A stretch of DNA of 64,000 nucleotides from the NCBI GenBank assembly GCA_019058445.1, contig JAHPZA010000009.1, positions 518,310 through 582,309 on the forward strand, given 5' to 3'. This stretch comes from Promethearchaeota archaeon. GTDB lineage: Archaea > Asgardarchaeota > Lokiarchaeia > Sigyniarchaeales > SOKP01. The notes beneath the pieces are model-generated. The model ran no database searches and had not been told where the DNA came from. It worked only from the letters and a program-made list of their open reading frames with translations. The number at the start of each line of letters is the position of its first letter. The first letter of the stretch is position 1. Both the position numbers and the translations under genes were made by a program. Shown here in pieces: positions 57,348 to 57,452 of the stretch.

Positions 57348-57452
57348 GCCTCAATAACTCAGCTCTTTTGAGCTAAGTTGAGTCAGCTCAGTTGGTAGAG
57401 CGTTGCCTTGGTAAGGCAAAGGTCGGGGGATCATAGCCCCCTTGAGGCTCCA
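57348..57452 (+). tRNA. tRNA-Thr(GGT) with a 29-nt BHB intron (57356-57384) at position 8/9; CCA encoded
   Basis: Acceptor GCCTCAA/TTGAGGC, D arm GCTC-AGTTGGTA-GAGC, anticodon arm TTGCC-TTGGTAA-GGCAA, T arm GGGGG-ATCATAG-CCCCC, T-CCA. The intron forms a bulge-helix-bulge. Confidence 0.88.

What the first reader, a model, noticed from the sequence alone, without database searches (positions are those of the whole stretch)
57348..57452. tRNA-Thr(GGT) with a BHB intron at the very unusual position 8/9
The pre-tRNA folds as GC|CTCA|ATA|ACTCAGCTC-TTTT-GAGCTAAGT|TGAG|TCA|GC: a 4-bp central helix flanked by two 3-nt bulges. Cutting after the second nt of each bulge (AT^A, TC^A) removes 57356-57384 and yields exactly GCCTCAA-T8-A9-GCTC.... 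Non-canonical archaeal introns I know of are mostly in the D, anticodon, variable and T arms; I do not recall 8/9. Standard scanners would probably mis-call the 5' end.
Basis: partly seen in the sequence, partly recalled or inferred. Interest (0 to 1): 0.8.

Follow-up and report, generated by a model that had tools for sequence, protein, structure and literature searches.

The report
tRNA-Thr intron at 8/9 with leader decoy
The only threonine tRNA (anticodon GGU) gene of this Loki-type Asgard archaeon really is interrupted by a 29-base protein-spliced intron between tRNA positions 8 and 9, a rare site, and just upstream it carries a spare copy of the tRNA's first strand that probably lets the cutting signal fold.

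Summary
Window 57348-57452 encodes tRNA-Thr(GGU) with a 29-nt insert (57356-57384) between U8 and A9. The insert sits in a strict bulge-helix-bulge (BHB) motif, seen in 0.28% of shuffled introns. Removing it gives a 76-nt cloverleaf. A relative's orthologue has the two exons joined exactly as predicted. ARAGORN finds no tRNA in the window, and Rfam matches only model positions 9-63.

The gene is single-copy. An independent, about 20% diverged metagenome contig keeps the same intron, with two structure-compatible changes. No other of 153 genomes searched in the order has it.

The kind is known: archaeal EndA-spliced introns at non-canonical positions, and heavily interrupted Asgard tRNA genes (2024 paper, 2026 preprint). 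I found 8/9 in no position list I could read.

The leader also holds a 9-nt decoy (57334-57342), the exact complement of the tRNA's 3' strand. It is conserved in the second contig and absent from 21 of 22 intron-free orthologues. In folding, it raises the probability of the BHB central helix from 0 to 0.92.

This scan has noted similar leader decoys beside 5'-proximal introns in at least eight other archaeal genomes; I found no paper describing them. No RNA evidence for splicing was obtained. The catalytic EndA subunit is missing from this 92.6%-complete assembly.

The parts
57283..57300 (+). Promoter-like A/T element (AAAAAAATTTTTAATTTA), a likely BRE/TATA
   Evidence: It is conserved upstream of the orthologous tRNA-Thr genes of many relatives and of contig L254. 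In relatives, tRNA +1 lies mostly 34-40 nt after it. Its function is inferred, not shown.
57322..57347 (+). Inferred 5' leader of the pre-tRNA (start approximate)
   Evidence: Inferred from the usual archaeal TATA-to-start spacing. No transcript data were obtained (one search was uninformative).
57334..57342 (+). Leader decoy GAGCCUCAA: a copy of acceptor strand 1-7 plus 2 nt, the exact reverse complement of 57442-57450
   Evidence: Chance expectation is about 2e-5 to 5e-5. It is 9/9 conserved in L254, whose flanks are 76-80% identical. It is absent (6 nt or less) from 21 of 22 intron-free orthologues. With it, P(decoy:3' strand) = 1.0 and P(central helix) = 0.92; without it, P(central helix) = 0.
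57348..57355 (+). 5' exon, tRNA positions 1-8 (GCCUCAAU)
   Evidence: It pairs with 57442-57448 as the acceptor stem. It is identical to the first 8 nt of the uninterrupted G013 orthologue.
57356..57384 (+). 29-nt BHB intron between positions 8 and 9
   Evidence: Strict hBHBh'. Absent from 22 orthologues. Present in L254 with 2 substitutions, both structure-compatible. No other copy in the genome.
57385..57452 (+). 3' exon, positions 9-76 including encoded CCA; anticodon GGU at 57410-57412
   Evidence: Rfam tRNA match 57385-57441, 39.4 bits, model positions 9-63. Cloverleaf after in-silico splicing.
57453..57457 (+). T5 run directly after CCA, a possible archaeal terminator
   Evidence: Read from the sequence only. 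tRNA-Met starts at 57465, so co-transcription is not excluded.

Best explanation
This is the functional, single-copy tRNA-Thr(GGU) gene of a Loki-type (Promethearchaeia) Asgard archaeon. It carries one 29-nt archaeal-type intron between U8 and A9.

Proposed pathway: the gene is transcribed with a leader of about 26 nt. [quoted passage not shown] This gives the 4-bp central helix of a BHB motif, flanked by bulges A7-U8-A and U-C-A9.

The (alpha-beta)2 splicing endonuclease cuts after the second base of each bulge, and RtcB joins U8 to A9. The acceptor stem then forms, and RNase P removes the leader.

The central helix uses the same bases as the acceptor stem, so the two folds compete. A 9-nt leader decoy (57334-57342) pairs with the 3' acceptor strand, the discriminator and C74. 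That frees the true 5' strand for the splice motif.

Shown here: the gene structure, the motif, the insertion boundaries by comparison, its retention in a diverged relative, and the predicted thermodynamic switch. Inferred: transcription start, cleavage, ligation, order of events, and that the decoy is selected for this role. I put the decoy's role at roughly 50% and the spliced 8/9 intron at roughly 85%.
For: - **Motif and product:**. Strict BHB at the boundary arises in 0.28% of shuffles.
- **Orthologue comparison:** orthologue L002 has the exons contiguous as GCCTCAAT-AGCTCAG. Twenty-two orthologues lack the insert and carry introns elsewhere or none.
- **Single copy:** no other tRNA-Thr(GGU) and no other copy of the intron in the 4.6-Mb assembly, so the gene must yield a working tRNA.
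- **Independent contig L254:** it is syntenic and only 76-80% identical in its flanks, yet keeps the intron at 27/29. One change turns G:C into G.U and the other repairs the C.A mismatch into C:G. It keeps the decoy at 9/9, with C74 to U giving a G.U pair.
- **Folding energies:** without the leader, the BHB conformer costs 10 kcal/mol (-33.6 against -43.8). With the leader, the free MFE (-51.1) has the decoy paired to the 3' strand, together with H, the 5' bulge and h'.
- **Ensemble probabilities:**
- **Enzymes:** RtcB is present. A beta-type EndA subunit is present. Thirty-six of 40 relatives have two EndA genes. The same-genus alpha subunit has Y/H/K intact and a crenarchaeal-type loop (GSPLGISKPR), and its best match is the A. 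pernix catalytic subunit 3p1z_B. PMC5829648 reports (alpha-beta)2 EndA with the L1 loop in Asgard.
Against: - No RNA evidence was obtained. Public contigs do not cover the intron, and the RNA runs gave nothing usable.
- The catalytic EndA alpha subunit is not in this assembly (completeness 92.6%).
- The outer helix h is only 2 bp. It competes with the D stem and has ensemble probability 0.01, so the 3' bulge would need the enzyme to stabilise it.
- After splicing, the decoy:3'-strand pairing is still favoured by 5.4 kcal/mol in secondary-structure terms. How the acceptor stem forms for RNase P is unexplained.
- The decoy could be a relic of a local duplication. It lies exactly where relatives have tRNA +1, 35 nt after the promoter-like element.
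- A second decoy-bearing gene, tRNA-Leu(GAG), forms its central helix with or without the leader.
- G000 and L254 share ancestry, so the intron-decoy association rests on one evolutionary event here.
Confidence: 0.8

Rival explanations
1. The 5' exon is the upstream copy (57336-57343, GCCUCAAA). The intron would then be 41 nt (57344-57384), the mature tRNA would carry A8, and the proximal copy would be intronic.
For: The upstream copy can form the same H and h pairs with the intron's 3' end, as a relaxed hBH motif, and ARAGORN accepts the product (candidate 56). Its G lies 35 nt after the promoter-like element, the modal spacing of tRNA +1 in relatives and the spacing in same-genus L005 and L006.
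Against: It has no inner helix h' (h' = 0), against a strict BHB for the proximal site. It would replace the near-universal U8, which the uninterrupted orthologue L002 keeps as T8. In the ensemble, the upstream copy is fully paired to the 3' strand, not to the intron.
Confidence: 0.06
2. The insert is not removed. The gene is then a pseudogene, or makes a tRNA with an extra hairpin between the acceptor and D stems.
For: No RNA data were obtained. The Asgard census preprint warns that some intervening sequences may not be introns. The leaderless transcript prefers a cloverleaf with an inserted hairpin.
Against: It is the only GGU-anticodon threonine tRNA gene in the assembly. The exons are intact and conserved. 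A strict BHB sits exactly at the comparative boundary (0.28% by chance). The insert is retained, with structure-preserving changes, in a lineage about 20% diverged in the flanks. A 29-nt arm at 8/9 would break the U8-A14 turn; that last point is from established tRNA structure and is my inference.
Confidence: 0.07
3. The leader copy is a neutral by-product of the local duplication that created the intron, and has no role in splicing.
For: - The decoy and the true 5' end look like an imperfect 12-nt tandem repeat (GCCTCAAAATTT / GCCTCAATAACT).
- 57348-57364 is 16/17 identical to positions 1-17 of the G013 orthologue.
- The intron's first 10 nt match the 3' exon's first 10 at 7/10 (p = 0.004), so self-duplication of the 5' region is plausible.
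- The tRNA-Leu(GAG) decoy also looks like an 11-nt tandem repeat and is not needed for its central helix.
Against: The decoy is 9/9 conserved against about 18% change in the surrounding leader and 20-24% in the flanks, though alone this gives only p of about 0.1. It extends 2 nt beyond the acceptor copy so as to pair with the discriminator and C74, and the C74-to-U change in L254 keeps a G.U pair. It has a large predicted effect on the fold. Unchecked AI notes of this scan report the same arrangement in other phyla.
Confidence: 0.4
4. The insert is an assembly artefact or chimera.
For: The public contigs of the likely source run do not cover 57300-57376.
Against: An independent JGI metagenome contig (Ga0114923_10087304) carries the same architecture with its own substitutions and an extra intron.
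Confidence: 0.01

Closest known systems
Non-canonical BHB introns of crenarchaeal (Thermoproteales) tRNA genes, including the extreme 3/4 acceptor-stem site (Sugahara 2008, as summarised in PMC4090602; Marck and Grosjean 2003)
   Same: A short protein-spliced intron defined by a bulge-helix-bulge at the exon-intron junctions. The location is unconstrained by the tRNA fold. The host clade has the (alpha-beta)2 endonuclease with the broad-specificity loop. Forming the splice motif disrupts the cloverleaf.
   Different: The position, at the acceptor/D junction (8/9), is not in the lists I could read. The host is a mesophile-type, AT-rich Asgard archaeon. The motif is coupled to a leader copy of the acceptor strand, which those descriptions do not mention.
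[quoted passage not shown] 2026 preprint, 10.64898/2026.10.13.758758)
   Same: Most tRNA genes are interrupted: only 5 uninterrupted tRNAs are found by ARAGORN in this 4.6-Mb genome. Intron positions turn over quickly between orthologues. Introns are hidden from standard tools and sit at canonical BHB boundaries.
   Different: Those studies focus on Atabeyarchaeia, Freyarchaeia and Jordiarchaeia, and on D-arm insertions. Acceptor-stem and junction insertions are only lumped as 'other'. No leader element is described. This genome belongs to the Loki-type order.
Split and permuted tRNA genes (Nanoarchaeum equitans, Caldivirga, Thermofilum; PMC3218864, PMC4090602)
   Same: Sequences outside the mature tRNA (leaders or trailers) base-pair so that the BHB can form and the pieces stay together during splicing.
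   Different: Here both exons are on one transcript in normal order. The leader does not form part of the BHB. It is proposed to sequester the competing 3' acceptor strand.

Membership tests
Archaeal BHB (EndA-spliced) tRNA intron | A 4-bp central helix flanked by two 3-nt bulges on opposite strands, each 3' of its helix strand, with flanking helices (hBHBh') | tested here: met
   H is 4/4 Watson-Crick, both bulges are 3 nt, h is 2 bp, and h' is 9 positions with one mismatch. In L254, h' is 9 bp unbroken. The motif arises in 0.28% of shuffles. In the ensemble, H and the 5' bulge are well populated only when the leader is present. The 2-bp h is poorly populated.
Archaeal BHB (EndA-spliced) tRNA intron | Cutting after the second base of each bulge restores an in-register, foldable tRNA | tested here: met
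   The 76-nt product is a cloverleaf at MFE. ARAGORN calls it tRNA-Thr(ggt). The junction is identical to the contiguous sequence of orthologue L002.
Archaeal BHB (EndA-spliced) tRNA intron | The insert is absent from orthologous genes (evidence independent of the motif) | tested here: met
   Twenty-two orthologues have positions 1-9 contiguous. No match to the intron in 153 other genomes of the order.
Archaeal BHB (EndA-spliced) tRNA intron | The host encodes a splicing endonuclease able to cut non-canonical sites, and an RtcB ligase | tested here: inconclusive
   RtcB is present. Only a non-catalytic beta-like EndA (Tyr to Phe, His to Ser against 1a79) is in the assembly. The catalytic alpha subunit, with Y/H/K and a CSL-like loop, is present in a same-genus genome, and two EndA genes are found in 36 of 40 relatives. 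The assembly is 92.6% complete.
Archaeal BHB (EndA-spliced) tRNA intron | The intron is absent from the mature RNA in vivo | not testable with these tools
   I tried laying public runs. There was no cover of the intron region and no usable RNA contig.
Self-splicing (group I or group II) intron | A ribozyme core of hundreds of nucleotides | tested here: not met
   The insert is 29 nt. There is no Rfam intron family match in the window.
Split or permuted tRNA gene | Exons on separate transcripts or in permuted order | tested here: not met
   Both exons lie in normal order, 29 nt apart, on one strand.

The most novel reading that the evidence does not exclude
The leader copy of the acceptor strand is a dedicated cis-acting splicing aid: a decoy that captures the 3' acceptor strand so that introns close to the tRNA 5' end can fold into the endonuclease's motif. 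It would be a general, so far undescribed rule of archaeal pre-tRNA architecture, now also seen in Asgard. Intron and decoy may arise together by self-templated local duplication of the tRNA's own 5' region. That would offer a route for the still unexplained arrival of new tRNA introns.
Probability: 0.35. Interest if true: 0.75.

Novelty: new variant of a known kind. Interest (0 to 1): 0.55.

Why it matters
[quoted passage not shown] How such introns arrive, and how they are tolerated at sites that disrupt the tRNA fold, is an open question; the 2026 census preprint says so explicitly.

This locus is a clean, comparatively dated example at a rare site, where the splice motif must compete directly with the acceptor stem. 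It comes with a simple, testable cis element that resolves the competition in silico.

It also shows concretely why standard tRNA finders under-report tRNA sets in these genomes. Here the sole tRNA for ACC/ACU codons is invisible to ARAGORN and truncated in Rfam.

Tried and rejected
- **Public reads.** The best DNA holder's contigs do not cover 57300-57376, and the two RNA runs gave nothing on the tRNA-Thr gene. There is therefore no evidence either way on splicing.
- **Genome contigs pattern GCCTCAATN{15,45}AGCTCAGYTGGTAGAG.** Too loose. It returned 119 mostly bacterial chance matches and was useless.
- **Tighter intron patterns.** There were none in genome contigs. The exact-intron pattern found none in metagenome contigs. 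A pattern fixed only on the junctions then found L254.
- **BLAST of the intron and leader over 154 genomes of the order.** Only chance-level hits. The two best (L165, L166) do not lie beside a tRNA-like sequence.
- **Automatic whole-genome tRNA census.** I enumerated BHBs and checked with ARAGORN. It resolves this gene uniquely but is noisy for multi-intron genes. One apparent second '8/9' case (C6, 'tRNA-Asn') is AT-rich junk. I use the census only as a rough context.
- **Rfam tRNA search over 30 family genomes, to look for other 5'-truncated hits.** Only the top 150 full-length matches are listed, so it could not answer how common 8/9 is.
- **Sugahara 2008, Marck and Grosjean 2003, and Tocchini-Valentini 2011.** These papers are not held, so I could not check their full position tables.
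- **The 9/10 register.** Rejected, because it forms no BHB.
- **The 'tRNA-Thr(ggt)' that ARAGORN -i calls on C6.** Rejected by eye; it looks like tRNA-Gln(UUG) (candidate 37).

Full report
**What is there.** Window 57348-57452 (+) reads GCCUCAAU, then a 29-nt insert, then AGCUCAGUUGGUAGAGC...CCA. The flanks are positions 1-8 and 9-76 of a tRNA with anticodon GGU at 57410-57412. The acceptor stem is GCCUCAA with UUGAGGC, the discriminator is U73, and CCA is encoded. ARAGORN reports no tRNA in the whole window. Rfam's tRNA model matches only 57385-57441, model positions 9-63, at 39.4 bits.

**The motif.**
- Outer helix h: 57348-57349 with 57386-57387.
- Central helix H: 57350-57353 with 57379-57382.
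- Bulges: 57354-57356 and 57383-57385.
- Inner helix h': 57357-57365 with 57370-57378, with one C.A mismatch.
- Loop: UUUU.

The cut rule, after the second base of each bulge, follows from the canonical 37/38 case. There the first two anticodon bases lie in the 4-bp helix (PMC4090602). My enumerator of BHB motifs found this as the only strict hBHBh' in the pre-tRNA that leaves a tRNA.

The spliced 76-mer folds to a textbook cloverleaf at MFE. A strict motif at exactly this boundary arises in 0.28% of dinucleotide-preserving shuffles of the insert and 0.09% of random inserts. The first intron base equals the first 3'-exon base, so 8/9 and 9/10 give the same product. Only 8/9 forms the motif.

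**Comparative evidence.** The genome is 4.6 Mb, 31% G+C, in 10 contigs. Its relatives are labelled Promethearchaeota or Promethearchaeia, some 'Loki'.

Orthologous tRNA-Thr(GGU) genes were recovered from about 30 relatives. They are recognisable by sequence and by the tRNA-Met gene directly downstream. All have positions 1-9 contiguous. G013 reads GCCTCAAT-AGCTCAG, exactly the predicted splice product.

These orthologues carry no intron, or introns at 37/38, in the variable region, the T loop or the D loop. Intron positions therefore turn over fast at this one locus. No other of 153 genomes searched in the order holds the 8/9 insert.

A pattern fixed only on the junctions found one independent metagenome contig, L254 (Ga0114923_10087304). 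It is syntenic with this locus but only 76-80% identical in the flanks.
- It has the same 29-nt intron at the same place, with two substitutions, both in the 3' strand of h'. One turns G:C into G.U. The other turns the C.A mismatch into C:G.
- It also has an extra intron after the anticodon stem, and no encoded CCA.

So the intron is real, older than the split of these two lineages, and evolving as a paired structure. The gene is the only tRNA-Thr(GGU) in the assembly, and the intron has no other copy. It must therefore be removed for ACC/ACU decoding.

**The enzymes.** RtcB is present. The only EndA homologue in the assembly, a 202-aa ORF at G000:C9:770313-770921, aligns with M. jannaschii EndA but has Phe for the catalytic Tyr and Ser for the catalytic His. 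It is therefore a structural beta-type subunit.

Thirty-six of 40 relatives have two EndA genes. The same-genus alpha subunit has Tyr/His/Lys intact. Its best match is the catalytic subunit of the A. pernix heterotetramer, including the crenarchaeal loop region. This agrees with PMC5829648, which reports that Asgard have (alpha-beta)2 EndA with the L1 loop that confers broad specificity. The alpha gene is not in this 92.6%-complete assembly, so this membership feature remains inconclusive for G000 itself.

**The leader decoy.** Bases 57334-57342 (GAGCCUCAA), 5 nt upstream of the gene, are the exact reverse complement of 57442-57450: the 3' acceptor strand, the discriminator and C74. An earlier first-stage note (e1-5498858) proposed a conformational switch, and I tested it.
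- **Chance:** expectation is about 2e-5 to 5e-5.
- **Conservation:** the decoy is 9/9 conserved in L254, where C74 to U keeps a G.U pair. The leader around it is about 18% diverged.
- **Orthologue control:** among 22 orthologues without the 8/9 intron, the longest leader complement to the 3' strand is 2-6 nt in 21 and 7 nt in one, L016.
- **Within-genome control:** among 27 tRNA genes of this genome with defined 5' ends, only this gene (9 nt) and tRNA-Leu(GAG) (7 nt) have such a copy.
- **Position in the transcript:** the decoy lies inside the expected transcript. A promoter-like element conserved across relatives ends at 57300, and tRNA +1 in relatives is mostly 34-40 nt after it.
- **Folding energies:** without the leader, the splice-competent fold costs 10 kcal/mol (-33.6 against -43.8). 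With the leader, the unconstrained MFE (-51.1) pairs the decoy with the 3' strand and forms H, the 5' bulge and h'. The strict BHB lies 3 kcal/mol above that.
- **Ensemble:** the central helix goes from probability 0.0 (leaderless) to 0.92. L254 gives the same topology.

**Weak points of the decoy model.**
- The 2-bp outer helix competes with the D stem (probability 0.01).
- After splicing, the decoy is still favoured by 5.4 kcal/mol, so the step to RNase P is unexplained.
- In tRNA-Leu(GAG), the central helix forms regardless of the leader.
- The decoy sits where relatives have tRNA +1, so it may be a relic of a duplication.
- G000 and L254 count as one evolutionary event.

**Origin, a lead only.** Bases 57348-57364 are 16/17 identical to positions 1-17 of the G013 orthologue. 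The intron's first 10 nt match the 3' exon's first 10 at 7/10 (p = 0.004). The intron's 3' half is the inverted copy of this segment minus the three bulged bases. Together with the leader copy, this looks like local direct and inverted duplication of the tRNA's own 5' region, not import of a foreign intron.

**Comparison with what is known.** Protein-spliced introns at 'seemingly random' non-canonical positions, including the acceptor stem (3/4), are well known in Crenarchaeota (PMC4090602, PMC8450103, PMC12397907). Near-universal interruption of tRNA genes in some Asgard lineages, many missed by tRNAscan-SE, is published (PMC11291895; bioRxiv 10.64898/2026.10.13.758758). [quoted passage not shown]

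This case is therefore a member of a known kind at a rare site. I found no paper describing a leader decoy. This scan's own unchecked notes report the same arrangement beside 5'-proximal introns, including 9/10, in at least eight other archaeal genomes. So the scan has seen this before on other DNA.

**Verdict.** The intron itself is of moderate interest. The conserved decoy, and the hint of a self-duplication origin, are what make the locus worth an experiment.

Noticed in passing
window 57465-57591 (+): tRNA-Met/Ile2(CAU) gene, 12 nt after the tRNA-Thr CCA. It has at least two inserts: about 20 nt in the D arm and about 30 nt at or near 37/38. Rfam scores it only 14.6 bits. The Thr-Met gene pair is conserved in many relatives, with different intron sets.
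   Followed up: partly
window 57434-57440 (T loop AUCAUAG): The T loop has A54 and U58 instead of the near-universal U54/A58, a swapped reverse-Hoogsteen pair. The same loop type (ATCATAG, ATCGTGC, ATCATGA) occurs in several orthologues (L002, L003, L014, L022, L254), while others have TTCAAAT. Earlier scan notes saw it in another genome.
   Followed up: partly
G000:C9:770313-770921 (outside the window; L031:1219-1827): This is the only EndA homologue in the assembly. It has Phe for the catalytic Tyr and Ser for the catalytic His, so it is a beta-type subunit. The catalytic alpha gene, present in 36 of 40 relatives, is not found in this 92.6%-complete assembly.
   Followed up: yes
G000:C1:127438-127563 (-), outside the window: tRNA-Leu(GAG) has a 30-nt D-loop intron (about 15/16) and a 7-nt copy of its acceptor strand (GTAGGAG) 4 nt upstream, which looks like an 11-nt tandem repeat. 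ARAGORN takes the copy as the 5' end. Here the central helix forms with or without the leader.
   Followed up: partly
whole genome G000: ARAGORN finds only 5 uninterrupted tRNAs in 4.6 Mb, and Rfam finds 16 tRNA matches. Almost every tRNA gene I could resolve carries one to three inserts. G000 and same-genus G006 have the fewest Rfam tRNA hits of 31 family genomes (16 and 15, against 19-52).
   Followed up: partly
L016 (relative G018), about 16 nt upstream of its tRNA-Thr(GGT): The leader contains GCCCCTG, an exact 7-nt complement of that gene's 3' acceptor strand, although the gene has no 8/9 intron (its intron is in the variable region). This is either a counter-example to the decoy rule or a relic.
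   Followed up: no
window 57348-57384: The 5' exon plus the intron's 5' half is 16/17 identical to positions 1-17 of the G013 orthologue. The intron's 3' half is its inverted copy minus the three bulged bases. This suggests origin of the intron by local direct and inverted duplication of the tRNA's own 5' region.
   Followed up: partly
window 57283-57300 and the same place upstream of orthologues: The motif AAAAATTTTTAATTTA is conserved upstream of tRNA-Thr(GGT) across many genera of the family. It is a likely BRE/TATA promoter consensus for tRNA genes of this clade.
   Followed up: no
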